A stretch of DNA of 54,252 nt from a virus (lineage: Duplodnaviria; Heunggongvirae; Uroviricota; Caudoviricetes), in the IMG/VR virus record IMGVR_UViG_3300035547_000249; one strand, given 5' to 3'. The notes under the pieces are model-generated. The model had not been told where the DNA came from and ran no database searches. It saw only the letters and a list, made by a program, of their open reading frames with translations. The translations under genes were made by a program, and so were the position numbers. Positions 544-49,534 of the stretch are shown here, piece by piece; within the stretch, counting starts at the first letter, position 1; every line of letters begins with the position of its first letter.

Positions 544-735
544 ATGGTATTTAATGTAAACAATAACGAAGTAGTATTAACAGAGGCTGATAACCCCAAA
601 GAAGCTTGTGAGGGTTGTTGCTTCAATGTTACAGAAGGTGTATGTCCAACCATTAAGAGGGGTGCATGGACAGCACTTATGTGTGAAATGGTTTTAAGTA
701 AAAAAGGAGCTAATCACTTCAAAACACTTAATTAA
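544..735 (+). CDS. hypothetical protein (Cys-rich)
   Basis: 63-aa ORF in the operon direction; no recognised motif. Confidence 0.5.
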   Translation: MVFNVNNNEVVLTEADNPKEACEGCCFNVTEGVCPTIKRGAWTALMCEMVLSKKGANHFKTLN

Positions 736-781
736 CTAACCTCTTTAATAATTACAGCACTTATTTTTTAATAAGTGCTAA

Positions 782-865: not shown

Positions 866-945
866 AAAAGAGCCGAAGTGGTTGGTTCATCAAACATAAG
901 CTATAAATTTATCAAAAACAAACCAATCACAAAACTAGCTCTTTT
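866..945 (+). ncRNA. novel CGAA/AWAACUA RNA motif, free-standing copy A
   Basis: aaaagagc/gctctttt stem, CGAA opposite AAAACTA, 10-bp gtggttggtt/aaccaatcac stem with GTTCATC; directly after tRNA-Leu. Confidence 0.7.
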
Positions 946-1355: not shown

Positions 1356-1537
1356 CCCAAATTAAATTTTGAGAGAGCCGAAAGCTATAGTTCATCGGAT
1401 AATAATAACATACTATGAAATGATATTTACTAGGTTCAAGTCCTAGAGACTCGCCCGCTTTCGTCTTCCGTCGGCGTGGCATTTTAAAAACTATGGCCCA
1501 AACTTGCTCTTTCATTAACACATGGAGGAATTAAACT

Positions 1538-2366: not shown

Positions 2367-2412
2367 CATTAAAAACCGTGCTCCGGTAGTTCAACTGGCA
2401 GAGCCACCGGCT

Positions 2413-3108
2413 TAATTAGTAAAAACCTAAGTAGTAATTTCGTATGAGGGATTGTGTAGTTCTGTGTGGCAATTAGCACATAATAGAATACATTTATCTG
2501 CCTCAGTATACAATTTATCAAGTGCACGATTAGAACAACTTCTCATGTCTAGTTTAAACTTTTTAGTTTTTTCCTCTACATGATGAAATGTCAGTACTGC
2601 TGAATTCTTACAGTATCCGCATTTCTGACATTTACCACCAAGGTATTTAATTAAGTCTAATCTTATTTTTCTACCTTTTTTGTTCTTTAATTCTTGATAG
2701 TTTTTGGATTTTAATCTTCCAAGCGACTTTTTATTTGTTTTTAATTTACACTTTTTTAGTCTATACATTGTCGCTGTTTGAGAAATTCCTATTTTATTAG
2801 CTATTTCTCTAGTAGATAAACCTTTATCTACTAAAGGTTTTAATTCATCATAAAAATTGTTCATAAAGATTTTCCTATATGGTTTTAACTTGATGGGCCA
2901 TAACTATACCTAAGTATTAAGTTCCTATTTAATATAAGGTTAGTTAATTGTATCTTGTCAAATTCGGGGAAACCTTAACAGGTAATGCTGATGGCAATCC
3001 CGAGCCAAGCCCGTAAGGGAAGGTGTAGAGACTATACGGCAAGGCCGAAAGGTAAGATATAGTCCAGACTACAAACCAGAAATGGGCAGTGAAAACTGTA
3101 GTGGTAAG
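2413..3108 (+). mobile_element. group I intron between U33 and C34, with an HNH gene in the P1 loop
   Basis: same core as the Leu intron; exon ggct pairs with ggcc at 2896-2899; terminal G3108. Confidence 0.9.
2427..2864 (-). CDS. intron-encoded HNH homing endonuclease with N-terminal HTH
   Basis: CQKC..FHH..LLCANCHTELH; antisense to the intron. Confidence 0.85.
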   Translation of the reverse strand: MNNFYDELKPLVDKGLSTREIANKIGISQTATMYRLKKCKLKTNKKSLGRLKSKNYQELKNKKGRKIRLDLIKYLGGKCQKCGYCKNSAVLTFHHVEEKTKKFKLDMRSCSNRALDKLYTEADKCILLCANCHTELHNPSYEITT

Positions 3109-3168
3109 CATAACCGGTCAGTTGTAGGTTCGAGTCCTACCCGGAGTACCAAAGAAAAGAAGGTAAAC

Positions 3169-6423: not shown

Positions 6424-6627
6424 ATGTATAAACCATATGAAGCAGTAATGGTTAACCCATTCTTCAGTAAAGTAACTTTTGAAGGAGATACCATTTTTAC
6501 ATATCTTTTAGATTACAGTGAAGCTAAATTACAAGCTAATCTTTTTAATAACATTTATGCTTTGGGGGTTATGAAAGCATGTAACTTGGCTGATAACAGA
6601 GAAGAGATACTAAAAATATTGAAATAA
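6424..6627 (+). CDS. hypothetical protein
   Basis: 67-aa ORF. Confidence 0.5.
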   Translation: MYKPYEAVMVNPFFSKVTFEGDTIFTYLLDYSEAKLQANLFNNIYALGVMKACNLADNREEILKILK

Positions 6628-6634
6628 AAAACAT

Positions 6635-6699
6635 AAAAGGACCGAAGATTGTAGTTTATCTATTTGGAGAAAACACTACAATTACTAACTTGTCCTTTT
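6635..6699 (+). ncRNA. novel RNA motif, free-standing copy C
   Basis: aaaaggac/gtcctttt, CGAA opposite ACTAACTT, gattgtagt/actacaatt, GTTTATC and AAAC. Confidence 0.7.
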
Positions 6700-6718
6700 A
6701 AATAATTTTTGAGGTAAT

Positions 6719-6970
6719 ATGAGACTTCCAGAAATAGTTAAGGAAATAAATGAAGTTGAAAAATTAAGGTTAAAGTTAAATAGCTTATTCGAAAAAGAAT
6801 CTAGTGTGTGTCCACATGTATCTTTTAGAGAAAGTTCGTTGTTTGAGTGGCAAACAGAAAAAGTTTGTAACAGAGAGGACAATCTATCTATAGGAACGCA
6901 TTATACGACGTTTTGTAAGCCAGAGTTTTGTCCTATGCAGGTAGAAAATTTGGTTGGTATGGGAAAATAA
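6719..6970 (+). CDS. hypothetical protein
   Basis: 83-aa ORF with GAGG RBS. Confidence 0.55.
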   Translation: MRLPEIVKEINEVEKLRLKLNSLFEKESSVCPHVSFRESSLFEWQTEKVCNREDNLSIGTHYTTFCKPEFCPMQVENLVGMGK

Positions 6971-6996
6971 ACACATACTACTTACAAAATTAATAC

Positions 6997-7025
6997 TTGA
7001 CAAACTATTTAACTAACCTTATTAT
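6997..7025 (+). promoter_or_regulatory. sigma70-like promoter
   Basis: TTGACA-17 bp-TATTAT; predicted +1 falls at the start of motif copy D. Confidence 0.7.
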
Positions 7026-7030
7026 TAATA

Positions 7031-7109
7031 CAGGACCGAAGATATTGGTTTATCATATAACAGTTTACAAAAACAGTCCAAGACAAGACCATTATCATAA
7101 CTAGTCCTG
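7031..7109 (+). ncRNA. novel RNA motif, free-standing copy D
   Basis: caggac/gtcctg, CGAA opposite ATAACTA, gatattggtt/gaccattatc, GTTTATC; 5' leader of tRNA-Gly. Confidence 0.72.
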
Positions 7110-7113
7110 ATAT

Positions 7114-7185
7114 GCGAGCATAACTCAATTGGTAGAGTGCTGGCCTTCCAAGCCAGTGACCTCGGTTCGATTCCGGGTGCTCGCT
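7114..7185 (+). tRNA. tRNA-Gly(UCC)
   Basis: ctggc-CTTCCAA-gccag, U73. Confidence 0.95.
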
Positions 7186-7216
7186 CAAGTAACCATTTAA
7201 TGTGAGGAATACCCAT

Positions 7217-7978: not shown

Positions 7979-8075
7979 CATGGACTTAGTGTTGTATGAC
8001 ACGAGAGATATAATAAACTAACCTCCTTATAAGTGAGAGGGTATTATACCCTTAGAGTTTATTAGGAGGAAGTTT

Positions 8076-8504
8076 ATGAAAAGATCTACGAAGTGGAAGG
8101 GTGATTTGGCAGAACAGATAGTGGTGGTAGAGGCAATGAAAATGGGTATAGATGTTTCTATTCCTGTGGGAGATAGACTAACATATGATCTTATATTTGA
8201 TGTAAATAGTTCTTTGTTAAAGATACAGGTAAAATGTGCATGGTTTGATAAATGTAGTAATAATTATATAACAGACACTAGGATGTGTAAAACCAATAGA
8301 AAACATTATAGGTTTGAGAAATACTCCAATAATGATTTTGATTTCGCTATTATAGTGGTAATGGAAAACAACTCCTTCTACATTATGCCTTCCGATGTGT
8401 TCAATTTATACAAATCCAGTGTAACACTGTCTGAATTTGAAACCAGGCAAAGATCTCCTAGGTCATTGCCATATAAAAATGCTTGGCACTTGCTAGATGT
8501 ATAA
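8076..8504 (+). CDS. free-standing PD-(D/E)XK homing endonuclease (I-Ssp6803I-like)
   Basis: KGDLAE..VSIPVGD..YDLIFD..KIQVK. Confidence 0.8.
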   Translation: MKRSTKWKGDLAEQIVVVEAMKMGIDVSIPVGDRLTYDLIFDVNSSLLKIQVKCAWFDKCSNNYITDTRMCKTNRKHYRFEKYSNNDFDFAIIVVMENNSFYIMPSDVFNLYKSSVTLSEFETRQRSPRSLPYKNAWHLLDV

Positions 8505-8612: not shown

Positions 8613-8747
8613 ATGAAGAAAAATAAAAGAAATAAAACACCATTTGAAAGGTTTAGGAAACCAATTCCAAAACCAGGTTCTTTTTTCAAAGACAGAAGCA
8701 AGTATAATAGGAAAAAGAAACATAAAAAAGACAACGGAGAGGTGTAA
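8613..8747 (+). CDS. small basic protein (44 aa), possibly ArfA-like
   Basis: AGGTGA RBS; ends FKDRSKYNRKKKHK; family assignment is tentative. Confidence 0.45.
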   Translation: MKKNKRNKTPFERFRKPIPKPGSFFKDRSKYNRKKKHKKDNGEV

Positions 8748-8796
8748 CTCATTGGAAGAGAGGCCGGCAATGTGGGTTCGAATCCTACCACCTCTT
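8738..8796 (+). ncRNA. tRNA-like RNA lacking the anticodon arm
   Basis: agaggtg/cacctct, D arm actc-attggaa-gaga, T arm gtggg-TTCGAAT-cctac; only ggccggcaat between D and T arms. Confidence 0.75.
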
Positions 8797-8819
8797 CATT
8801 AAACAATAATACACGACCA

Positions 8820-8941
8820 GGGGTCGTAGCTCAGTTGGTAGAGCAGCCGACAAACAACCTTTTATGATACCTAGTCAAAAAGACCGAAGTACGAGGTTAA
8901 TCATAATCAGTATGTCGTAGGTTCGAATCCTACCGACCCCT
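8820..8941 (+). tRNA. tRNA(CAU) with a 49-nt insertion at 32/33 (motif copy E)
   Basis: removing 8852-8900 gives a canonical 73-nt cloverleaf with loop CTCATAA. Confidence 0.8.
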
Positions 8942-8961
8942 TCAAACAATAAAGGTGACAT

Positions 8962-9339
8962 ATGGACATTGAATTACAGAATAAACTCTTTGATAAATAC
9001 CCAAAACTCTTCAGACAAAGAACACTAAATCCAGAAGACACATGTATGTGTTTTGGAATAGAGTGTGGGGATGGTTGGTTTTGGTTATTATATGAGTTGT
9101 GTGACTTCATACAAACATATGTAGACAATAACAAAGAAGAACAACCAGAAGCTATTCAGGTTAAGGAGAAATTTGGTGGTCTAAGATTTTATACTACCCC
9201 TACAACCGGAAAAATTGATGGTGCCATATGGTTTGCTGAAAGCTTATCTATGAGTATATGTGAGGTGTGTGGCTCAAGGGAAGATGTGACACAGACAAAG
9301 GGATGGGTAAGGTCTTTGTGTAAAAAGTGTATTAAGTAA
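8962..9339 (+). CDS. conserved phage hypothetical protein
   Basis: ECGDGWF..QVKEKFGGLRFY..C-x2-C pattern. Confidence 0.75.
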   Translation: MDIELQNKLFDKYPKLFRQRTLNPEDTCMCFGIECGDGWFWLLYELCDFIQTYVDNNKEEQPEAIQVKEKFGGLRFYTTPTTGKIDGAIWFAESLSMSICEVCGSREDVTQTKGWVRSLCKKCIK

Positions 9340-10127: not shown

Positions 10128-11063
10128 ATGGATTTTAAAAAAACTATCATTGACTACCTCGATTCTATAAAAAACGATTTTAATGAGTTAAGAATAGAAA
10201 ACAGGAAAGATAATATTTCCAAAACTCTTGAAAGATTAAAAGATTATAAAGAAAAAATTATCTCAGGAGAGTGGACTATAGATGACTTCTTGGAAGCATT
10301 TTTCGGGCATCTTAAAGTAGAGTCAATTTTAACACTTAATTCTGTATCTTTGTTCGATGAGCCAGCTATTTGGGCTATTAGAAGAAAGGTTAGACATGGT
10401 AATTATGATCGTTGGTCTGACATATACCGTGTATTGAAGGATAAATGTTCTAAGACAGAAGCTATCAAACTTGCTGAGAAAATGGAAGATATATACACTA
10501 GAGAATTTACTGAGGTACCAAGTATTAAAGTCCCCAGCGGAAAATTATTGTTTAGTAATTATTTTCTTAATAATGAAGAAGGCGATAATAAAACCTATGC
10601 ATTTAATGTTCCTGAAGATTTAAAATATGATGACTGGTTCTCACTAAATAGTAAATTTGGTAGACAGAACATGATGACATATCTTGCTAAAGAGTACAAT
10701 ATTGGTTACTGTCAATTAGGAAATAGAACAGTGGGAGTATATAAAGTAGATAATGACCGAATTTATTTAGCCCCCACATCTTATTACGACGATGTAACTG
10801 ATAGAGATATTGAACCTACCAAAAAGTGGGAATATTTAGGAGACATTGATTGCTCCGTTTGGCGAGTAGAATTTATTGATGAAATACTTTTTGATAGTAA
10901 TAATAACATTGATAAGGATTTTTTCGAAGAAGAGGATAATGTAATTGTAGAGGTTACTCCAGGTACTTGGACTGCACATAACTATTATCACTGTAAATCA
11001 GATAAGAGTTTGGTAGAAAAGTTTGGGTATCCTGTATGGATTGAGATAAATAGAATTAAATAA
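10128..11063 (+). CDS. hypothetical protein
   Basis: 311-aa ORF, no recognised motif. Confidence 0.75.
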   Translation: MDFKKTIIDYLDSIKNDFNELRIENRKDNISKTLERLKDYKEKIISGEWTIDDFLEAFFGHLKVESILTLNSVSLFDEPAIWAIRRKVRHGNYDRWSDIYRVLKDKCSKTEAIKLAEKMEDIYTREFTEVPSIKVPSGKLLFSNYFLNNEEGDNKTYAFNVPEDLKYDDWFSLNSKFGRQNMMTYLAKEYNIGYCQLGNRTVGVYKVDNDRIYLAPTSYYDDVTDRDIEPTKKWEYLGDIDCSVWRVEFIDEILFDSNNNIDKDFFEEEDNVIVEVTPGTWTAHNYYHCKSDKSLVEKFGYPVWIEINRIK

Positions 11064-11214: not shown

Positions 11215-11336
11215 GGGCTCGGTGTCCGTGGGGACTAAACAACTTTCGGTAATAACTAGTTGTGTTTACACAGCCGAGTATTGGAAGTTTATCAAATGCA
11301 AATTGAAAAACTTAGGTTCGACTCCTACCGAGTCCA
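11215..11336 (+). tRNA. tRNA-Cys(GCA)-like gene with a 55-nt insertion (motif copy F)
   Basis: removing 11237-11291 completes the ttcaa/ttgaa stem around ATGCAAA; acceptor gggctcg/cgagtcc; short D-loop; A73 is atypical for Cys. Confidence 0.65.
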
Positions 11337-26835: not shown

Positions 26836-27241
26836 TCATTTTTTTCCAGTTTTTATAATCACCAAACTTGGAATAACTAATAAGCTCATATCCAAGATAG
26901 TTCATATAATATATCTCCCTTTCCCTATTGTCAAGTATTAAATTAAAAGCTGAACAAACAAAATGTAAATTTTTTGTTTCTGTTAGACAAGATATAATTT
27001 TCACAGCCCAACATGGAATCCCTCTTTCAACCAATAATATAGCGTATGTTAATGAGATGTCAAGACTATCAGCTTTAAAAATTATATTGTTTTTAACTTC
27101 ATTAGAAAAATCTCTTAGGTTTTTCAAATAATTATTAAAAGTAAAAGCTTCTTGTATTGGATAAAATATTAGAAGCTCTTGAACATCTCTAAAAACACCT
27201 TCTGCTAATTTTTTGTAGTTAGGTATTATATTGATGCTCAT
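26831..27241 (-). CDS. hypothetical protein
   Basis: MSINIIPNY..; its ATG overlaps the tnpB TGA. Confidence 0.6.
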   Translation of the reverse strand: MSINIIPNYKKLAEGVFRDVQELLIFYPIQEAFTFNNYLKNLRDFSNEVKNNIIFKADSLDISLTYAILLVERGIPCWAVKIISCLTETKNLHFVCSAFNLILDNREREIYYMNYLGYELISYSKFGDYKNWKKMT

Positions 27242-28397
27242 CGGGCACCGCCCGACGATTCCAGAACTCCGAGGCTCCATCCAAGCCCAGTCTTGAGAAC
27301 TACCTTTGCCGCATTGATATCGCGGTCATGTTGTGCTCCACAAGCAATACATTCCCAAGCCCTTACTTTAAGCCCGCCCAGTCCTGTTGGTCCAGTTTTA
27401 GCACCACAAGTCGAACAGGTCAGAGTGGTATTTTTGGAATCAACTAAAACACACTTCCTACCGTGGTTATCACTCTTGTAGGAAATGAATTGTCTTAGTT
27501 GAGAGATGCCTGCATCAGATACTGACTTGCCAAAAATCTTGGCTTGCCCACGCAGGTTATCGTTTGTTATGTAAATTTCTGAAAAGTTTTCTACAATTTT
27601 TCTGGAAACTTTGTGGTTGTAATCTTTACGTCTATTGGAAATTCTTTCGTGTAGCCTACCGACCAACTTCTTTCGTTTGCCCCGTTGTGCTTGAGCCAAC
27701 CGCTTTTGCCCTTTAACAAACTCTTGGTGATTAGAAAACTTTTGACCGTTGGAAAGTATTGCCAAGTCCTTAAATCCAGTATCAATACCAACCACTTCTT
27801 TTGTTTGCTTGACCGGAAAAGTATGGTTGGTATCTATACACAATTGACAATACCAACCAGATGATCTACGAATTATACGAGCTTGTTTTATAACACCATC
27901 CGGTATCTCTTGTTTATGAAAACAAACTTCTTTTATTACTGGTAAAGATATTCGATTATTAGAAATTCTACTCCGCTTCAATATATCTGGAAAACAAATA
28001 GACCGAAGTTTATTATGAACTGACTTTAATTTCGGTTGTTTAGACACCTTCTTAAAACACCTATCCCAAGCACTGTAGGCTTGTAGAATTGTAGCTTGAA
28101 TTGTATGCGAAGGAATACCTATCTTTTTAGAAACATTTGGTAAACTGTTCTGTAGCTTGAGCTTTCTATGATACAGTTTATCCTTGGCATCCAGTTCTAT
28201 TTTTCTGGAAACCCAGTTATAAACACCAGTTAAACACCATAACCATTCTTCTAGTTTGGCAGTTTGACTTTTGTTAGGTTTAAGTTTTAATTCTCTTACC
28301 AGCATACAACTCCTCCTGAAACCAACAATAAGCATTAAATCCCTCTTGTCAAGAGCCTAACCCCGAAGACCCTTCGGGGATTGCGGCTCTAAGGCTG
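27231..28397 (-). mobile_element. IS200/IS605-family tnpB-only element
   Basis: left-end hairpin ATCCCCGAAGGGTCTTCGGGGTT; right-end hairpin TCGGGCGGTGCCCGA then CATCAA; exact ends inferred. Confidence 0.75.
27238..28335 (-). CDS. tnpB: TnpB RNA-guided endonuclease
   Basis: LKLKP..YNW; GIDTG (RuvC-I); CSTC..CIAC Zn finger; DRDINAA (RuvC-III); true start probably MLVRE. Confidence 0.92.
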   Translation of the reverse strand: MLIVGFRRSCMLVRELKLKPNKSQTAKLEEWLWCLTGVYNWVSRKIELDAKDKLYHRKLKLQNSLPNVSKKIGIPSHTIQATILQAYSAWDRCFKKVSKQPKLKSVHNKLRSICFPDILKRSRISNNRISLPVIKEVCFHKQEIPDGVIKQARIIRRSSGWYCQLCIDTNHTFPVKQTKEVVGIDTGFKDLAILSNGQKFSNHQEFVKGQKRLAQAQRGKRKKLVGRLHERISNRRKDYNHKVSRKIVENFSEIYITNDNLRGQAKIFGKSVSDAGISQLRQFISYKSDNHGRKCVLVDSKNTTLTCSTCGAKTGPTGLGGLKVRAWECIACGAQHDRDINAAKVVLKTGLGWSLGVLESSGGAR

Positions 28398-42253: not shown

Positions 42254-43292
42254 TCAATCCTTTTGATTTTACTTTGAATATAGTTTCCCCCTGTTTATCA
42301 ATACTGTCAGGTATTAAAAAAATCAAATCTTTTTCTTGAGACGTCATAACAGGACAATTATATTCTTTATTATAATGTTTTAACTCCTTACCGTTTGATA
42401 TCCTGTCTTTTACAAATGAGTTATGGTTTTCTATTCTATTTTTTACCCTCTCTATTGATATAGAGATTACATTATTAATTCCTTCTTTTATTACAGGCAT
42501 CAAATTAGAATCAAGTTCATAACCATAACTGTTTCTACTGCATGACATAGCCGAAAAGGTTGTTGTTCCAGCGCCTAGAAAAGGGTCCAAAACAGTATCA
42601 CCCATAACTGAATACATATTAATAAGTCTATATGAAAGTTCAAAAGGAAAAGAAGCATTCCTTTCTCTATTCTTAATTCCTAATTTTTGAGACGTTCCTT
42701 TTAAATCTGTCCAAATATCAGAAAACCACTTATTTCTTTCTTCCCAAAATATAGAACTCATCCTTCTATTATATTTATCAGTTTGAGATTTAAATTCTCT
42801 TTTATTTCCTTTCCTAAAAACAAGTATATACTCATGTTCTAAAGTTACATATGCGCCTGCAGGCATTACTCCAGAACCCATAAACTTATTAGGAGAATTT
42901 GTCTGCTTTCTCCAAATAATACAAGGAAGGTTAGTAAAACCAGCCACTAAACATGAAGATATAATTCTAGAATGATTCGAATATAAAGAAAAATTACCAT
43001 TAATAGTTCTAGTAGCATCTCCTATATTTATACAAGCAAAACCACCTGGTTTTAAAACTCTGTAACACTCATCCCATATTTCATCTAATACTAAATGCAT
43101 TCTATTGAAGGCACCGTTTCCATCACCAAGTTCAATTAAATTCTTTATGTCGCTATCAATATCTATAAACATATTATCCCACATTGATACCATAGGATAA
43201 GGAGGAGAAGTTACAATTAGATCTATACTATCATCTTCTAAATCCATCATATTTCTTGAGTCACCGTTTAATATTGTATGCAGTGTTATCAT
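42243..43292 (-). CDS. beta-class N4-C/N6-A DNA methyltransferase
   Basis: DLIVTSPPYP precedes VLDPFLGAGTT. Confidence 0.9.
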   Translation of the reverse strand: MITLHTILNGDSRNMMDLEDDSIDLIVTSPPYPMVSMWDNMFIDIDSDIKNLIELGDGNGAFNRMHLVLDEIWDECYRVLKPGGFACINIGDATRTINGNFSLYSNHSRIISSCLVAGFTNLPCIIWRKQTNSPNKFMGSGVMPAGAYVTLEHEYILVFRKGNKREFKSQTDKYNRRMSSIFWEERNKWFSDIWTDLKGTSQKLGIKNRERNASFPFELSYRLINMYSVMGDTVLDPFLGAGTTTFSAMSCSRNSYGYELDSNLMPVIKEGINNVISISIERVKNRIENHNSFVKDRISNGKELKHYNKEYNCPVMTSQEKDLIFLIPDSIDKQGETIFKVKSKGLNDD

Positions 43293-44548
43293 ATAATGAC
43301 CTCTTCTGGTAATTTGTCACCGTGTTTTTTAATAAAAACTGGAAATTGATACCTACCAGTATCAAACTGTTGTTCATATTCAATCTCTATAACACAAGGA
43401 AAAGACCAGTTATCTATTTCACAATCTCCTTCTTTGATTTTCAATCCTGTTCCTACACTTCCCAATTCCACAAGATTGCCGTTCCCATCATATTTTCCTA
43501 TAAGTAAGCTACCTATTTTACCTTGTTTTGAGCCAGAACCTTCTGTCCAACCATATGCTATAACATCATCTTCTTCTTTGGCTTTAAGTTTATAACACGC
43601 TCTTCTACTAGGCTTACCATTATACGTTATTTCAGCGTTTTCATCTGAGTTCCATACAACCATACCCTCATACATATGTTTATTGTTTTTTGCCCACTCT
43701 ACAGCCTCTGCGTGATTATTAAACACCAACTCCCTGGGGGGTATAATGTGTGGAGCATACATTTCTCTCTGTATCATATTTAAAACAGTATTATATGGTT
43801 TTTTTGTCATATCTGTTCCAGCCAAAAAAAGTATATTAAATACAACAGCACATACAGGAGTATCTTTTTGTAGAGCTAGTGTTGTTGTAACATCCTCCTT
43901 AACCTTGCCCTTGAGAGTATCAGACCTAGATATACTTGACATTAATTTAAAAGCCTTCATATGGGGTATCTTTAATATTGGGTCAATAATAAACTCTGTT
44001 GCTAATAATGTCTTTTTAGGCATATTTAATTTTTTTGCATCTTCGACAATACTTGGATACTTTTTAGTATGATCATCTATACGTCTAGTATATATTTTTA
44101 TATCTCCTGTATCTGTCACTAAAATAAAATGACATAAACCATTTTCTTTTATAAATGGTCTAAGTTTATCATTTAATAGTAAAGTATTAAATTTAACTTT
44201 ACTAATTTCTTTAATAGGTTTTGAACAACTAAACTGAGTAGGAAGATCACTAAAACTCATGTACTCTTTTTTTAAGTCTGGCAAATTATCAAGAGAGTCT
44301 ACTTCAATATAACCTTCTTTTATCTTCTTAGTTATTATCCTATCAAAATCTGCAACAGCTGCTTCTTTTGGTGATAATTCGTTAGACTTTCCTTTGTTTA
44401 TATAACCATAGGTGTTTGAAGTATTTTGTACTTTACCATCTATAAGTCCCCACTCTCTATTAACTGTGTCTTCATTTAGAAACATTTTAACAAACTTTAC
44501 TCTACCGCTTGAGTGTAGTTGGACCAATAACTTTTCTTCTTTTCCCAT
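43289..44548 (-). CDS. ATP-dependent DNA ligase with a WGR-like N-terminus
   Basis: REWGLIDG; KENG (motif I), YEGMVV, YKLK, OB fold with FP.F. Confidence 0.85.
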   Translation of the reverse strand: MGKEEKLLVQLHSSGRVKFVKMFLNEDTVNREWGLIDGKVQNTSNTYGYINKGKSNELSPKEAAVADFDRIITKKIKEGYIEVDSLDNLPDLKKEYMSFSDLPTQFSCSKPIKEISKVKFNTLLLNDKLRPFIKENGLCHFILVTDTGDIKIYTRRIDDHTKKYPSIVEDAKKLNMPKKTLLATEFIIDPILKIPHMKAFKLMSSISRSDTLKGKVKEDVTTTLALQKDTPVCAVVFNILFLAGTDMTKKPYNTVLNMIQREMYAPHIIPPRELVFNNHAEAVEWAKNNKHMYEGMVVWNSDENAEITYNGKPSRRACYKLKAKEEDDVIAYGWTEGSGSKQGKIGSLLIGKYDGNGNLVELGSVGTGLKIKEGDCEIDNWSFPCVIEIEYEQQFDTGRYQFPVFIKKHGDKLPEEVII

Positions 44549-47649: not shown

Positions 47650-47874
47650 CTAAAAATCTGTAGTATACTCACCATCAGAAACATATTTATAAGAAGCTAC
47701 CCTTTTACCCTTCTCATCAAAAGAATCTACATAATTAATACCGGTATTAAAAGCATCTTCTTTATTAAAATACATCATTTCTGGTTCTTCAGAATGAGAA
47801 CACACAAAATATTTTTCTTTATTATTCATCACAATACTCCCTAACTTTATTAAAGGTTTTTCTATGAACTTCAC
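47650..47874 (-). CDS. hypothetical protein
   Basis: 74-aa ORF; start uncertain. Confidence 0.5.
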   Translation of the reverse strand: MKFIEKPLIKLGSIVMNNKEKYFVCSHSEEPEMMYFNKEDAFNTGINYVDSFDEKGKRVASYKYVSDGEYTTDF

Positions 47875-49534
47875 AAGGACCGTAAGTTCTTAAAGCATTG
47901 ACATGCTCTTTCGTAAGATATCCTTTGTTCCTATCAAACCCATAAAAACTCCATATCTCATGCAGTTCTTTCATCGTTCTATCTCTAGTGACCTTGGCTA
48001 CTATAGAAGCGGCAGCTATTGAAATTGATTTAGAATCCCCCTTTATTACTTTCATTTGGGGAATATTGATTCCTTTAAGTTCTATAGGACCATCTATCAT
48101 AACATACTCAACAAACTTTAAGTTTGATATTGCTTCTTCCATAGCAGCCTTAGTAGCATTTAATATATTTATATCGTCTATAACTTTATTACTTACAACA
48201 CCAAAACCAACATCACATGTTTTCATTATAATTGGAAATAATTCTTCTCTCTTTTTTTCAGATAACTTTTTAGAATCTTTAACCCTTAACAATAATTCTG
48301 GTATAACATCATCCGGTATGTAAACTGCTGCTGCCACTACTGGTCCAGACCCACAGTTACCTGTGAAATAACCAGTACCATCTCTCCTTACATAAAAATT
48401 ATGATGTATAGGTAAAGAAATACAAAAAACTTTTCCTTTATAGAACTCTTTACTAATTTTTAAATACTTAACATGAGAAGATTTATTGCGCTTTAGTCTT
48501 ATTTCAAAACACGGAACACAATTCTCTTTTCTTATCTTCCTACCCCTTATATAACGATCTCTTGGTTTTCTAATAGTAGTACTAAATGTCCAACCAGCTT
48601 TTAACAATATCTCTTCAAAATCGTTTCTAAGTTTATTGGATGTTGTATAATACACACAAACTTCTTTTCTGTTTCTTCCGGTGTAACAAGTCCCATCTCC
48701 TTTTATCAACCACTCTATTAATATATTTAGTTGTCTTTTTGATAAATTTTTTATATCATTAGGTATAAACTTATCATAACATTTACCAAACACATTAAGA
48801 TAAGAATACAATTGTTTGTTGTATATAACTATACCTTTTTTAGTTCTTTTAACATCAAAAGGCAGTTTAGAGCACATTTCAAATATTTCTTCACATGTAT
48901 CTTTTTTTATTTGAGTTATACCAACAACATAAGACGCCCCTTTTTTATAACTGGTATGACCTTCCGATAGATATATACCTAAAAACTTTAACCAAAGATC
49001 CATAGGTATTAATTTCTCACCATAGTCTTTTCCAGAATGATCATATTTATGTTTTTTTACAGAAGGAAGAATGAAATTATCTACATCTACAGCACACCAT
49101 TCTCCTCCCCTTGGTATAAAATCATTATCAGATAGATCTAGAACACCCTTTCTTCCTCTAAATTTAAGTCCAGTCATTTTTAATTTATTGTTATCATTTC
49201 TATCTCTTCTAAATGTTCTGCGTAAAACATCAAAATAATGATCCGGGGTGACTTTAATATTAATGGTTCTATTACTCATTTCCAACAATTTGCCTTTAAA
49301 GTCTTTAATAATTATGTTACTTATTTTTTGCCATTCTATAGTATCATTATTTGTGTAAGATAAAACCATATCATCTACAGACAGTTCATTATAATATTTC
49401 CACCCACTGACAGTAAGAACTTCTGCATCTATTTTCTCACAACCCCTACCCACTTCGTCCACACCAACAATGTATTTATAACCCTGTTCTTTTATTTCAG
49501 ATTCTATCTCGTATGTAGCGAATTTGTTTTCCAA
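47822..49534 (-). CDS. rnhB: ribonuclease HII containing an intein
   Basis: exteins join as GVDEVGRG|CGSGPVVAAAV; VKDSKKLS, IKGDSKS.SIAAASIVAKV.RD, NKGY.T..H. Confidence 0.92.
   Translation of the reverse strand: MENKFATYEIESEIKEQGYKYIVGVDEVGRGCEKIDAEVLTVSGWKYYNELSVDDMVLSYTNNDTIEWQKISNIIIKDFKGKLLEMSNRTINIKVTPDHYFDVLRRTFRRDRNDNNKLKMTGLKFRGRKGVLDLSDNDFIPRGGEWCAVDVDNFILPSVKKHKYDHSGKDYGEKLIPMDLWLKFLGIYLSEGHTSYKKGASYVVGITQIKKDTCEEIFEMCSKLPFDVKRTKKGIVIYNKQLYSYLNVFGKCYDKFIPNDIKNLSKRQLNILIEWLIKGDGTCYTGRNRKEVCVYYTTSNKLRNDFEEILLKAGWTFSTTIRKPRDRYIRGRKIRKENCVPCFEIRLKRNKSSHVKYLKISKEFYKGKVFCISLPIHHNFYVRRDGTGYFTGNCGSGPVVAAAVYIPDDVIPELLLRVKDSKKLSEKKREELFPIIMKTCDVGFGVVSNKVIDDINILNATKAAMEEAISNLKFVEYVMIDGPIELKGINIPQMKVIKGDSKSISIAAASIVAKVTRDRTMKELHEIWSFYGFDRNKGYLTKEHVNALRTYGPCEVHRKTFNKVREYCDE
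48356..49441 (-). mobile_element. 362-aa LAGLIDADG intein in RNase HII
   Basis: starts with C, VTPDH block B, GIYLSEG and WLIKGDG, ends TGN before C. Confidence 0.9.

What the first reader, a model, noticed from the sequence alone, without database searches (positions are those of the whole stretch)
8820..8941. 49-nt mini-intron candidate at position 32/33 of an otherwise perfect tRNA(CAU)
Seen: deleting 8852-8900 (AAACAACC...AGGTTAA) gives a 73-nt cloverleaf with canonical spacing and loop CUCAUAA. The insert is far too small for a group I or II intron, and I could not fold an archaeal bulge-helix-bulge at its junctions. It consists almost entirely of the permuted motif. Inference: either a new small tRNA intron class, or a natural tRNA scaffold displaying an aptamer.
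Basis: partly seen in the sequence, partly recalled or inferred. Interest (0 to 1): 0.88.

Follow-up and report, generated by a model that had tools for sequence, protein, structure and literature searches.

The report
tRNA carrying a Ro60-type Y-RNA module
The 49-base insert in this giant-phage tRNA gene is most likely not an intron but a binding module of the Y-RNA type (the partner RNAs of the Ro60 protein), which makes the gene a new, inside-out version of the known tRNA-mimicking Y RNAs.

Summary
8820-8941 is a strong tRNA body (Rfam 51.8 bits) interrupted in the anticodon loop. Deleting 8852-8900 gives a tRNA-Met(CAU) cloverleaf, apart from one C-A mismatch.

The insert is a Y-RNA-type module. 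It has a short closing stem, a bulged C followed by GAAG (ACCGAAG), a covarying 9-bp upper stem, and a GUUHAUC motif. At least four stand-alone copies and one more embedded copy lie in the same tRNA island.

Two related uncultivated jumbo phages carry the same modules, alone and inside tRNA bodies. One is an orthologous tRNA(CAU) chimera with seven compensatory pair changes. The 87%-complete relative encodes Ro60 (TROVE), RtcB and an Rnl2-type ligase.

A model built only from these modules picks out the Y RNAs directly upstream of Ro60 genes in two actinophages.

Best reading (about 0.6): an unspliced tRNA-shaped Y RNA, a circular permutation of YrlA with a free acceptor end and a closed Ro60-binding stem.

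The intron reading is not excluded (about 0.17). In four of five chimeras, removing the module restores a canonical anticodon arm, although the insertion positions differ. The orthologue in the relative cannot be restored.

This scan has noted tRNA-shaped Y-like RNAs with a different handle in other phages.

The parts
8820..8851 (+). 5' part of the tRNA body: acceptor 5' strand GGGGUCG, U8 A9, D arm, A26, anticodon-stem 5' strand GCCGA (8846-8850), C32 (8851)
   Evidence: Rfam tRNA alignment; ARAGORN drawing; covariation with the G001 orthologue
8852..8902 (+). Permuted Y-RNA-type module: AAAC (8852-8855), upper-stem 3' strand (8856-8864), A-rich strand ending CCUA (8865-8873), lower stem GUC / loop AAAAA / GAC (8874-8884), bulged C plus GAAG (8885-8889), upper-stem 5' strand (8890-8898), AAUC (8899-8902). 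GUUAAUC spans 8896-8902. Its last two bases, UC, double as U33 and C34 of the tRNA reading.
   Evidence: Descriptor scan; alignments A2 and A5 with covariation; model R2 69.9 bits; motif comparison with RF01656 and YrlA consensus and with the literature
8903..8941 (+). 3' part of the tRNA body: AUAA, anticodon-stem 3' strand UCAGU (8907-8911), variable loop AUGUC, T arm GUAGG-UUCGAAU-CCUAC, acceptor 3' strand CGACCCC, U73
866..945 (+). Stand-alone Y module in normal order, filling the slot between tRNA-Leu (782-865) and tRNA-Trp (950-1019)
   Evidence: R1 68.7 bits; fold z -5.3; covariation on A1; tRNA coordinates
1371..1513 (+). Y module in normal order whose apical domain holds a T-arm-like hairpin (CUAGG-UUCAAGU-CCUAG) and another hairpin. 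This is a Yrl RNA in the canonical topology and was not used to train R1.
   Evidence: R1 42.5 bits, E 6.6e-07; fold
6635..6699 (+). Stand-alone Y module in normal order, intergenic
   Evidence: R1 76.5 bits
7029..7111 (+). Stand-alone Y module in normal order, directly before tRNA-Gly (7114-7186) and behind a TTGACA-N17-TATTAT promoter-like site (6999-7027)
   Evidence: R1 51.8 bits; RF01656 (nematode sbRNA, a Y-RNA homologue) 24.9 bits, E 0.0077; sequence read
11215..11336 (+). Second tRNA-like body carrying a permuted Y module (11237-11293), inserted between the D stem and an intact anticodon hairpin (loop AUGCAAA). The acceptor has G3-U70 and A73, and the D loop has only 4 nt.
   Evidence: R2 78.9 bits; sequence; not recognised by Rfam tRNA (12.8 bits) or by ARAGORN -i
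8738..8796 (+). Anticodon-less tRNA mimic 23 nt upstream. Together with the D arm of 8820-8941 it produces a weak, probably spurious YrlA hit of the 'dimeric tRNA' kind.
   Evidence: Rfam tRNA 34 bits and YrlA 22.1 bits; the caveat about dimeric tRNAs is in Chen et al. 2014

Best explanation
8820-8941 encodes one unspliced non-coding RNA: a complete tRNA-shaped domain whose anticodon stem continues into a closed Y-RNA-type module. The tRNA domain has a 7-bp acceptor stem with free ends, D arm, T arm, Levitt pair and a 5-bp anticodon stem. The module has an upper stem, a bulged-C/GAAG internal loop, a short lower stem and a GUUHAUC motif.

This is the connectivity of YrlA, the bacterial and phage Y RNA in which a Ro60 (Rsr)-binding stem is joined to a tRNA-like effector domain, but circularly permuted. 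Here the chain ends lie at the acceptor stem and the Ro60-binding stem is capped by a loop. In YrlA the ends lie at the Ro60 stem and the acceptor stem is capped.

Inferred mechanism:
- The RNA is released from the tRNA array by the ordinary tRNA end-processing enzymes (RNase P, 3' trimming, and the phage's CCA-adding enzyme encoded about 11 kb upstream).
- The module binds a Ro60 protein, which may be phage-encoded as in the relative G001 or come from the host.
- The tRNA-shaped half tethers that protein to tRNA-recognising partners or substrates, as part of a phage RNA surveillance and repair kit (Ro60, RtcB, Rnl2 in G001).

Shown here: the structure, the covariation, the motif identity, conservation in three phages, and a Ro60 gene in a relative. 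Inferred: Ro60 binding, absence of splicing, and the tethering role.
For: 1. Module identity.
- All copies share ACCGAAG-like, GUUHAUC and ACU(A/U)G strands around two covarying helices. A1 (six normal copies): 93.6% paired, 10 pairs with compensatory changes, 0/500 shuffles. A5 (seven permuted copies): 91.8% paired, covariation 0.65 against 0.28, 0/500.
- These are the published hallmarks of Y RNAs: a lower-stem helix with a single bulged C, GGUCCGA or GNCGAA(N0-1)G, and a UUAUC motif after the upper stem (PMC4726728; PMC4201824; 'CGAA motif', PMC12135203).
- Copy 7029-7111 hits the nematode sbRNA (Y-RNA homologue) family RF01656 at 24.9 bits, E 0.0077, through exactly these strands.

2. Cross-check. 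Model R1, built only from these AT-rich phage modules, places its best hit in each of two actinophage Ro60 loci directly upstream of the Ro gene on the same strand. The Gordonia phage Cashline hit (18.3 bits) is a textbook YrlA with Y stem, T arm, acceptor hairpin and D arm.

3. Relatives.
- G001 (238 kb, 87% complete; 36 of 79 window ORFs have syntenic homologues) has five normal modules, plus an orthologous tRNA(CAU)+module gene after tRNA-Glu and tRNA-Met (Rfam tRNA 50.7 bits with a 63-nt insert).
- The two orthologues differ by seven compensatory pair changes and by a G15:C48 to A15:U48 Levitt switch.
- G001 encodes TROVE/Ro60 (123 bits; about 40% identical to actinophage Ro-like proteins), RtcB and an Rnl2-type ligase.

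4. Against splicing.
- In G001 no deletion gives a canonical 7-nt loop. The equal-boundary deletion gives an 8-nt loop, yet body and module are fully maintained.
- The discriminator base is U, C or A in the three phages.
- The module needs the UC that the tRNA reading assigns to the exon.
- The same permuted module occurs in non-tRNA contexts (L334:1501-1566, L278:13104-13167). One of these has the same UUAUC-AUACU continuation as the G001 chimera.

5. Wang et al. 2018 describe YrlA as a circularly permuted tRNA with a closed acceptor stem. A canonical-topology copy with a T arm lies in the same window (1371-1513).
Against: - No curated family reaches its gathering score: RF01656 24.9 against 38, YrlA 22.1 against 69 (a hit that is probably a dimeric-tRNA artefact), and Y_RNA no hit.
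- No TROVE gene lies in the 79-kb fragment of this phage, which is only 29% complete.
- In G001 the Ro60 gene is about 39-55 kb from the modules, not within the 4 kb typical of bacterial Y RNAs.
- The lower stem of this copy has only 3 bp capped by AAAAA, and RNAfold alone does not favour the module fold (z -1.06).
- In four of five tRNA-embedded copies, removing the module at the boundaries N|A(A)AC...GUUHA|UC restores a canonical anticodon loop or a perfect 5-bp anticodon stem. The insertion points are 32/33, 26/27 and 28/29. An unspliced scaffold does not obviously require this.
- No expression, binding or processing data exist.
Confidence: 0.6

Rival explanations
1. The module is a true intervening sequence of a new, protein-dependent kind. 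An endonuclease that recognises the Y-type motif (perhaps with Ro60) cuts at N|AAAC and GUUHA|UC. A ligase such as RtcB joins the exons to give a working tRNA(CAU) and releases a hairpin Y RNA.
For: - Deleting 8852-8900 gives a tRNA-Met(cat) with loop CUCAUAA.
- The same boundaries restore a 5-bp stem and loop AUGCAAA in 11215-11336.
- In relative G002 they restore a tRNA-Ile(tat), with the insert at 28/29 and the stem CGUCA/UGACG rebuilt, and a tRNA-Gly(ccc) with loop CUCCCAA.
- Related inserts at different positions in different tRNAs recall mobile archaeal tRNA introns.
- The CAU-to-UAU difference between G000/G001 and G002 would keep AUA decoding if CAU is lysidine-modified.
- G001 encodes RtcB and Rnl2.
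Against: - The G001 orthologue cannot be restored (8-nt loop), although it is conserved with compensatory changes.
- The discriminator varies between U, C and A.
- Every chimera has some non-canonical feature: a C-A mismatch, an 8-nt T loop, a 4-nt D loop, or C1xU72.
- The conserved motif includes the UC that would be lost from the excised RNA.
- No bulge-helix-bulge can be drawn, and no EndA-type endonuclease is found in G000-G002.
- The module also stands alone and sits in non-tRNA RNAs.
- Canonical tRNA-Met and tRNA-Ile(UAU) genes exist beside the chimeras.
Confidence: 0.17
2. A mobile Y-type module inserted into spare tRNA gene copies and inactivated them. The chimeras are tolerated remnants, and only the module, if anything, is functional.
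For: The insertion points differ between tRNAs and phages. The tRNA island also holds group I introns and homing-endonuclease-like genes. Each chimera carries small defects.
Against: The tRNA bodies are under purifying selection for the fold. Between G000 and G001 there are four compensatory changes in the acceptor stem and two in the T stem, plus a compensated Levitt pair, at about 50% protein identity. Both bodies still score about 51 bits despite the insertion penalty.
Confidence: 0.08
3. The two-loop motif is a small self-cleaving ribozyme or an RNase processing signal that punctuates the tRNA array. In that case the insert destroys, or conditionally splits, the tRNA.
For: Natural circular permutation is typical of self-cleaving ribozymes. 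Copies abut tRNA ends (866-945, 7029-7111). RtcB could rejoin 2',3'-cyclic phosphate and 5'-OH ends.
Against: No ribozyme family matches at E up to 10. The conserved strands coincide with the Ro60-site and UUAUC motifs of Y RNAs. The architecture is a single continuous hairpin with two internal loops and no evident tertiary core.
Confidence: 0.05

Closest known systems
YrlA (Y RNA-like A; Rfam RF02553), partner of bacterial and phage Ro60/Rsr (Chen et al. 2014, PMC4201824; Wang et al. 2018, 10.1101/312249)
   Same: Both are two-module RNAs. A Ro60-type stem with a CGAA motif is joined through an anticodon-stem-like helix to an L-shaped tRNA-like domain with D arm, T arm, acceptor stem and a covarying Levitt pair. 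Both are found in phages that carry many tRNA genes.
   Different: The topology is circularly permuted. Here the chain ends are at a 7-bp acceptor stem and the Ro60-type stem is capped by a loop, whereas YrlA has a closed acceptor stem and no free CCA end. The lower stem keeps the metazoan-type bulged C. The RNA is not adjacent to the Ro60 gene, and it does not reach the Rfam threshold.
Metazoan Y RNAs and nematode stem-bulge RNAs (Rfam RF00019, RF01656; Kowalski and Krude 2015, PMC4726728)
   Same: The lower stem has a single bulged C followed by GA(AG), close to GGUCCGAAG. The opposite strand ends ACU(U/A)G. The upper stem is followed by UUAUC(AUAU). The stand-alone copies have the same size and shape.
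   Different: The origin is a phage. The motif is usually UUHAUC, one extra base. There are many copies per genome, embedded in tRNA arrays. This copy is permuted and placed inside a tRNA.
[quoted passage not shown] 2014)
   Same: This is a Y RNA whose tRNA-like domain ends in a free acceptor stem that tRNA end-processing enzymes can act on.
   Different: There the free end arises by cutting a closed RNA into two base-paired pieces. Here it is encoded as a single chain.
Engineered tRNA scaffolds for expressing recombinant RNA (Ponchon and Dardel; recalled from my own knowledge, not read here)
   Same: A structured RNA is inserted in place of the anticodon loop of a tRNA so that the chimera is processed and stabilised like a tRNA.
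   Different: This is a natural, conserved case, with a specific protein-binding module as cargo.
Archaeal bulge-helix-bulge tRNA introns at non-canonical positions
   Same: Short related inserts sit at different positions of different tRNAs, and removing them restores the tRNA. An RtcB ligase is present in the lineage.
   Different: No bulge-helix-bulge can be formed and no EndA homologue is found. The insert carries a Y-RNA motif that extends into the 'exon'.

Membership tests
Y RNA / YrlA-type Ro60 partner RNA | Lower-stem Ro60/Rsr site: a helix with CGAA motif (GNCGAAN0-1G, resembling GGUCCGA) and a bulged C | tested here: met
   AGACCGAAG at 8881-8889. All 10 normal and 7 permuted copies carry (A/G)(A/G/C)CCGA(A/G).
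Y RNA / YrlA-type Ro60 partner RNA | Two helices flanking the internal loop, supported by covariation | tested here: met
   A1: 93.6% paired, 10 compensatory pairs, 0/500 shuffles. A5: 91.8% paired, 0/500.
Y RNA / YrlA-type Ro60 partner RNA | UUAUC motif directly 3' of the upper stem | tested here: met
   GUUAAUC at 8896-8902. Other copies have GUU(U/C/A)AUC or UUAUC. The RF01656 consensus is GGGUUAUCauau.
Y RNA / YrlA-type Ro60 partner RNA | tRNA-like effector domain (T arm, D arm, acceptor stem, tertiary pairs) | tested here: met
   Rfam tRNA 51.8 bits. G15:C48 switches to A15:U48 in the orthologue.
Y RNA / YrlA-type Ro60 partner RNA | Chain ends at the Ro60 stem, with the acceptor stem closed by a loop | tested here: not met
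   The ends are at the acceptor stem, and the Ro60-type stem is capped by AAAAA (8877-8881). It is therefore filed as a permuted variant, not as a member of RF02553.
Y RNA / YrlA-type Ro60 partner RNA | Encoded within about 4 kb of a Ro60/TROVE gene on the same strand | tested here: not met
   No TROVE gene in the 79-kb fragment. In G001, TROVE lies at 97.8 kb and the modules at 136.7-153.2 kb. Only a weak Y-like hairpin sits in the TROVE leader.
Y RNA / YrlA-type Ro60 partner RNA | Score at or above the curated Rfam threshold | tested here: not met
   RF01656 24.9 against 38. RF02553 22.1 against 69. RF00019 gave no relevant hit.
Y RNA / YrlA-type Ro60 partner RNA | Bound by Ro60/Rsr | not testable with these tools
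   Needs EMSA or co-immunoprecipitation. The complex predictor takes proteins only.
Functional intron-containing tRNA | Canonical cloverleaf and 7-nt anticodon loop after removal of the insert, conserved in orthologues | tested here: inconclusive
   Met in G000 and for three other chimeras. Not met in the G001 orthologue, which gives an 8-nt loop.
Functional intron-containing tRNA | Conserved identity elements (discriminator N73) | tested here: not met
   N73 is U in G000, C in G001 and A in G002 chimera B.
Group I intron | Catalytic core P3-P8, about 190 nt or more | tested here: not met
   The insert is 49-51 nt. The Rfam Intron_gpI model hits three other tRNA genes of the window but not this one.
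Archaeal/eukaryal BHB tRNA intron | Bulge-helix-bulge at the junctions, and an EndA-type endonuclease | tested here: not met
   The intron 5' end (AAAC) cannot pair with the 3' exon start (UCAU). PF01974 gives only a 13-bit fragment with a stop codon.

The most novel reading that the evidence does not exclude
The Y-type module is a genuine excisable element: a protein-dependent tRNA intervening sequence in bacteriophages. It would be recognised through its Ro60-type motif, cut at N|AAAC and GUUHA|UC, and the exons joined by the phage RtcB. It would be mobile between tRNA positions 26/27, 28/29 and 32/33, so that one gene yields both a tRNA and a hairpin Y RNA.
Probability: 0.15. Interest if true: 0.95.

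Novelty: new variant of a known kind. Interest (0 to 1): 0.68.

Why it matters
Y RNAs and Ro60 occur from bacteria to humans, but what the tRNA-like half of bacterial Y RNAs does is still unknown. This phage lineage carries many Y modules in its tRNA island. Some stand alone between tRNAs, some enclose a T arm, and some are plugged into complete tRNA bodies that keep a free acceptor end.

A single-chain Y RNA that could be processed by RNase P, receive CCA and perhaps be charged would give a direct handle on the tethering idea. One could ask what the acceptor end contacts while Ro60 sits on the anticodon end.

The inserts sit at three different tRNA positions, and removal usually restores a canonical tRNA. 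This also raises a testable question: are these modules mobile, or even spliced? If they are spliced, it would be a new intron class.

In practice, genes like this are either missed or called intron-containing tRNAs by standard annotation.

Tried and rejected
1. Hammerhead, twister, pistol, hatchet and hairpin ribozyme readings. No Rfam match at E up to 10 on 8700-9000, 6600-7130 or 855-955, and the core sequences do not fit.

2. Reading the AACTAACCT box (729-752, 7006-7029, 8011-8034) as the 5' half of the motif. It is a separate promoter-like box. The true 3' strands were found by the descriptor scan and by R1.

3. Pattern scans of IMG/VR.
- GACCGAAG..GTTHATC gave about 119 chance-like loci.
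- The strict permuted pattern gave none.
- The T-arm-anchored pattern gave only G001 plus ordinary tRNAs and one group I intron.
- The single metagenome scan returned only copies of G001.

4. Looking for intron-less alleles through the downstream ORF 8962-9339. The family is huge (2187 proteins) and not syntenic with tRNAs. The identical-protein contigs carry the identical chimera.

5. The search for related loci with ORF 10128-11063 and with the CCA-adding enzyme found no relatives. blastn against the GenBank phage collection found no match.

7. The weak YrlA hit at 8751-8869 was rejected as the dimeric-tRNA artefact that Chen et al. describe.

8. The Y_RNA (RF00019) and RF01656 searches of whole records through the genome search found nothing relevant.

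9. Pfam TROVE does not hit five IMG/VR records that carry the other 'hairpin + ACAGCAA' tRNA-like genes. The link of that family to a Ro60-like protein, claimed in earlier notes, was therefore not reproduced here.

Full report
**Observation.**
The Rfam tRNA model matches 8820-8941 from first to last position at 51.8 bits, with a 55-nt insertion in the anticodon loop. Default ARAGORN misses it. With introns allowed, ARAGORN calls tRNA-Met(cat) with a 49-nt intron, and the deletion product is a 73-nt tRNA-Met with loop CUCAUAA. Two blemishes remain: a C29-A41 mismatch in the anticodon stem, and U at position 73. The same sequence stands in three independent assemblies. The window is a 53-kb piece of a 79-kb fragment of an uncultivated jumbo phage, about 29% complete. 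It has at least 17 tRNA genes and three group I introns in tRNA genes.

**What the insert is.**
- A descriptor scan and a covariance model (R1) find normal-order copies at 866-945, 1371-1513, 6635-6699 and 7029-7111. Permuted copies lie at 8852-8902 and 11237-11293.
- In normal order the element reads: lower stem, C-GA(A/G), upper stem, GUUHAUC, variable apical part, an A-rich strand ending C, upper stem, an A-rich strand ending ACU(A/U), lower stem.
- In the permuted copies the lower stem is capped by a loop, and the open side, where the apical part would be, is joined to the host RNA.
- Both helices covary strongly. Six normal copies from two phages are 93.6% paired, with 10 of 17 pairs showing compensatory changes and 0 of 500 shuffles as good. 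Seven permuted copies from three phages are 91.8% paired, with a covariation score of 0.65 against 0.28.

**Identification as a Y-RNA-type module.**
- A permissive Rfam scan of 6600-7130 aligned copy 7029-7111 to RF01656, a nematode stem-bulge RNA family, at 24.9 bits and E 0.0077 (gathering score 38). The alignment runs through GGaCCGaAG, uGGuUUAUCAUAUA and AACU.G.CC.
- Stem-bulge RNAs are the nematode homologues of Y RNAs.
[quoted passage not shown] A UUAUC motif follows the upper stem (PMC4726728).
- Bacterial and phage Y RNAs share GNCGAA(N0-1)G, which resembles the GGUCCGA contacted by Xenopus Ro60 (PMC4201824). A Thermus phage study used the CGAA motif to find its Y RNAs (PMC12135203).
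- The module in the tRNA reads AGACCGAAG ... GGUUAAUC, with the opposite strand ...ACCUAGUC.
- The Rfam YrlA consensus printed (cggCgaAUG ... aAaAcUuGucGccg) shows the same two strands.
- No curated family reaches its threshold, and the vertebrate Y_RNA model does not hit. This is therefore a resemblance in defining motifs, not a database membership.

**Independent cross-check.**
I fetched the Ro60 loci of two actinophages, found with the relative's Ro60 protein, and searched them with R1, which was built only from the AT-rich jumbo-phage modules. In each locus the best hit lies in the gap directly upstream of the Ro gene, on its strand. That is where Chen et al. found Y RNAs.
- In Gordonia phage Cashline the hit (L277:3842-3966, 18.3 bits) is a textbook YrlA. 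It has lower stem, CGGAG, upper stem and UUACC, then T arm, acceptor hairpin and D arm, then AAAAC, upper stem and lower stem.
- In Mycobacterium phage Catera the hit (L276:3885-3952, 14.5 bits) reads GGCCGAAGG...CGGUUAUCAA.

The scores are low because of the G+C difference, but the place, strand and motifs agree.

**Relatives.**
- A motif scan of IMG/VR found one related phage, G001 (237,910 bp, 87% complete). 36 of 79 window ORFs have homologues there at 24-70% identity, largely in the same order.
- An alignment-seeded protein scan found a third, G002 (92,895 bp, 34% complete).
- G001 has five normal modules in its tRNA island, two of them in tandem just before tRNA-Thr. After tRNA-Glu and tRNA-Met, as in the window, it has a tRNA(CAU) body with a permuted module (Rfam tRNA 50.7 bits with a 63-nt insert).
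- The two orthologues differ by four compensatory changes in the acceptor stem, two in the T stem and one in the module's upper stem. The Levitt pair switches from G15:C48 to A15:U48. Both halves are therefore under selection for structure.
- G001 encodes a TROVE/Ro60 protein (123 bits; about 40% identical over 98% of its length to actinophage 'Ro-like RNA binding proteins'), an RtcB and an Rnl2-type RNA ligase.
- The window's own fragment has none of these, but most of that genome is missing.

**Architecture.**
YrlA is described as a Ro60-binding stem joined to a tRNA-like domain that is a circularly permuted tRNA, with a closed acceptor stem, no free CCA end and no anticodon loop (10.1101/312249). 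Its order is: Y 5' strand, anticodon-stem 3' strand, variable region, T arm, acceptor hairpin, D arm, anticodon-stem 5' strand, Y 3' strand. Opening that circle at the acceptor loop and closing it at the Y stem gives exactly the order seen at 8820-8941. The RNA is thus the circular permutation of YrlA. The same window also holds a copy in the canonical topology, whose apical domain contains a T-arm-like hairpin (1371-1513). The stand-alone copies occupy 'tRNA slots' in the arrays: 866-945 lies between tRNA-Leu and tRNA-Trp, and 7029-7111 lies before tRNA-Gly. The tRNA end-processing enzymes would therefore release them.

**Intron or not.**
Evidence for an excisable element:
- G002 has two further tRNA-embedded modules. 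Removing them at the same motif boundaries gives a tRNA-Ile(tat) and a tRNA-Gly(ccc). In the first, the insert sits between positions 28 and 29 and the stem CGUCA/UGACG is rebuilt.
- The window's second chimera (11215-11336) likewise regains a 5-bp stem around AUGCAAA.
- So four of five embedded copies are 'restorable', at three different insertion positions. This is what one would expect of an excised or recently inserted element, and I cannot explain it fully under the scaffold reading.

Evidence against splicing:
- The G001 orthologue of this gene cannot be restored by any deletion, and equal boundaries give an 8-nt loop. Yet its body and module are maintained by compensatory change.
- The discriminator base is U, C or A in the three phages.
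- Each chimera has a non-canonical feature.
- The conserved GUUHAUC motif includes the UC that the intron reading assigns to the exon. UUAUC-AUACU also follows a permuted module in a non-tRNA context (L334:1501-1566), so 'UCAUA' belongs to the extended Y motif rather than to an anticodon.
- Permuted modules occur outside tRNAs.
- There is no group I core, no bulge-helix-bulge and no EndA homologue.

I therefore put the unspliced, permuted-YrlA reading at about 0.6 and the intron reading at about 0.17.

**Function.**
By analogy with Y RNAs, the module would bind Ro60, and the tRNA-shaped half would tether it to tRNA-recognising partners or gate its cavity. The free acceptor end makes RNase P processing and CCA addition likely, because the phage has its own CCA-adding enzyme. 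M. smegmatis YrlA reaches a similar state by RNase P cleavage. Jumbo phages are known to combine tRNAs, RtcB or Rnl ligases and, in some cases, TROVE proteins as an RNA-repair kit (PMC7824862). A Ro60-like protein of phage Bas63 counters the Ppl defence, and its authors suggested that some neighbouring 'tRNA genes' are Y RNAs (10.1101/2024.10.10.617714). All of this is inference, since no binding or expression data exist.

**Relation to earlier notes of this scan.**
Other agents reported tRNA-shaped RNAs with a different 'handle' (hairpin + ACAGCAA) in the anticodon region, next to divergent Ro60-like genes in other phages (e1-1676901 and others). I saw the same insert family independently in many IMG/VR contigs. 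I could not confirm a TROVE gene in five of those records with Pfam. The present case differs in using the classical Y-RNA motif and a classical TROVE Ro60.

**Verdict.**
This is a new, permuted variant of a known kind of RNA. The open question of restorable tRNAs keeps the bolder intron reading alive at modest odds.

Noticed in passing
L258:18040-18120 (G001 about 97,640-97,720): The leader of the G001 Ro60 (TROVE) gene reads ...AACUUGUUCUUAAAAGGAGAACCGAAAAUGG. This is a Y-type hairpin (ACUUG / lower stem / CCGAA) whose loop holds the Shine-Dalgarno sequence and whose 3' side runs into the start codon. Ro60 may autoregulate its own translation here. R2 gives a weak hit just upstream (18.1 bits).
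   Followed up: partly
window 11215-11336: The second tRNA-like chimera has G3-U70 and A73, the alanine identity set also used by tmRNA. It has a 4-nt D loop and an intact GCA anticodon hairpin beside the Y module. No canonical tRNA-Cys was seen in the window.
   Followed up: partly
window 2380-3150: The tRNA-Met 5' exon (2380-2413) and 3' exon (about 3109-3150) are separated by a roughly 695-nt group I intron. An ORF (2427-2864) lies on the opposite strand inside this intron. ARAGORN does not report the gene.
   Followed up: partly
window 8076-8504: A PD-(D/E)XK endonuclease of family PF11645 (E 7e-39) sits between tRNA-Glu and tRNA-Met. From memory, PF11645 is the family of the tRNA-fMet intron homing endonuclease I-Ssp6803I. 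The gene is absent from the same site in G001, where Glu and Met are adjacent, so it is probably a free-standing homing endonuclease.
   Followed up: partly
window 729-752, 7006-7029, 8011-8034; G001 141,724-141,750: A conserved box, TTAACTAAC(C/T)T-N2-3-TTAT/TAATAAT, lies upstream of tRNA/Y-RNA units in both phages. At 6999-7027 it coincides with TTGACA-N17-TATTAT. It is probably a promoter class of the tRNA island.
   Followed up: no
L150, L155, L156, L132, L145, L166, L176, L180, L182, L185, L193, L199, L200, L211, L215, L222, L235, L244 (IMG/VR loci): Many phage contigs carry tRNA-like genes with normal D and T arms but an anticodon region replaced by 'hairpin + ACAGCAA(U)'. This is a different inserted handle with the same overall design. 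Pfam TROVE found nothing in five of these records.
   Followed up: partly
L278:13104-13167 and L334:1501-1566 (G002): These are permuted Y modules in non-tRNA contexts. One lies upstream of tRNA-Ser inside a larger structured region. The other lies in an intergenic region between hairpins and a terminator-like stem.
   Followed up: partly
L278:16816-16891 (G002); G001 about 155,159-155,233: ARAGORN calls a tRNA with anticodon CUA (an amber-reading tRNA, also matched by Rfam tRNA at 51.2 bits) in G002, and an odd tRNA with a 2-base 'anticodon' in G001. These are possible suppressor or recoding tRNAs in this phage lineage.
   Followed up: no
window 27238-28335, 43289-44548, 47822-49534: Three genes of note: a TnpB/IS605 OrfB-type gene, an ATP-dependent ligase, and an RNase HII interrupted by an intein with a LAGLIDADG domain.
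   Followed up: no
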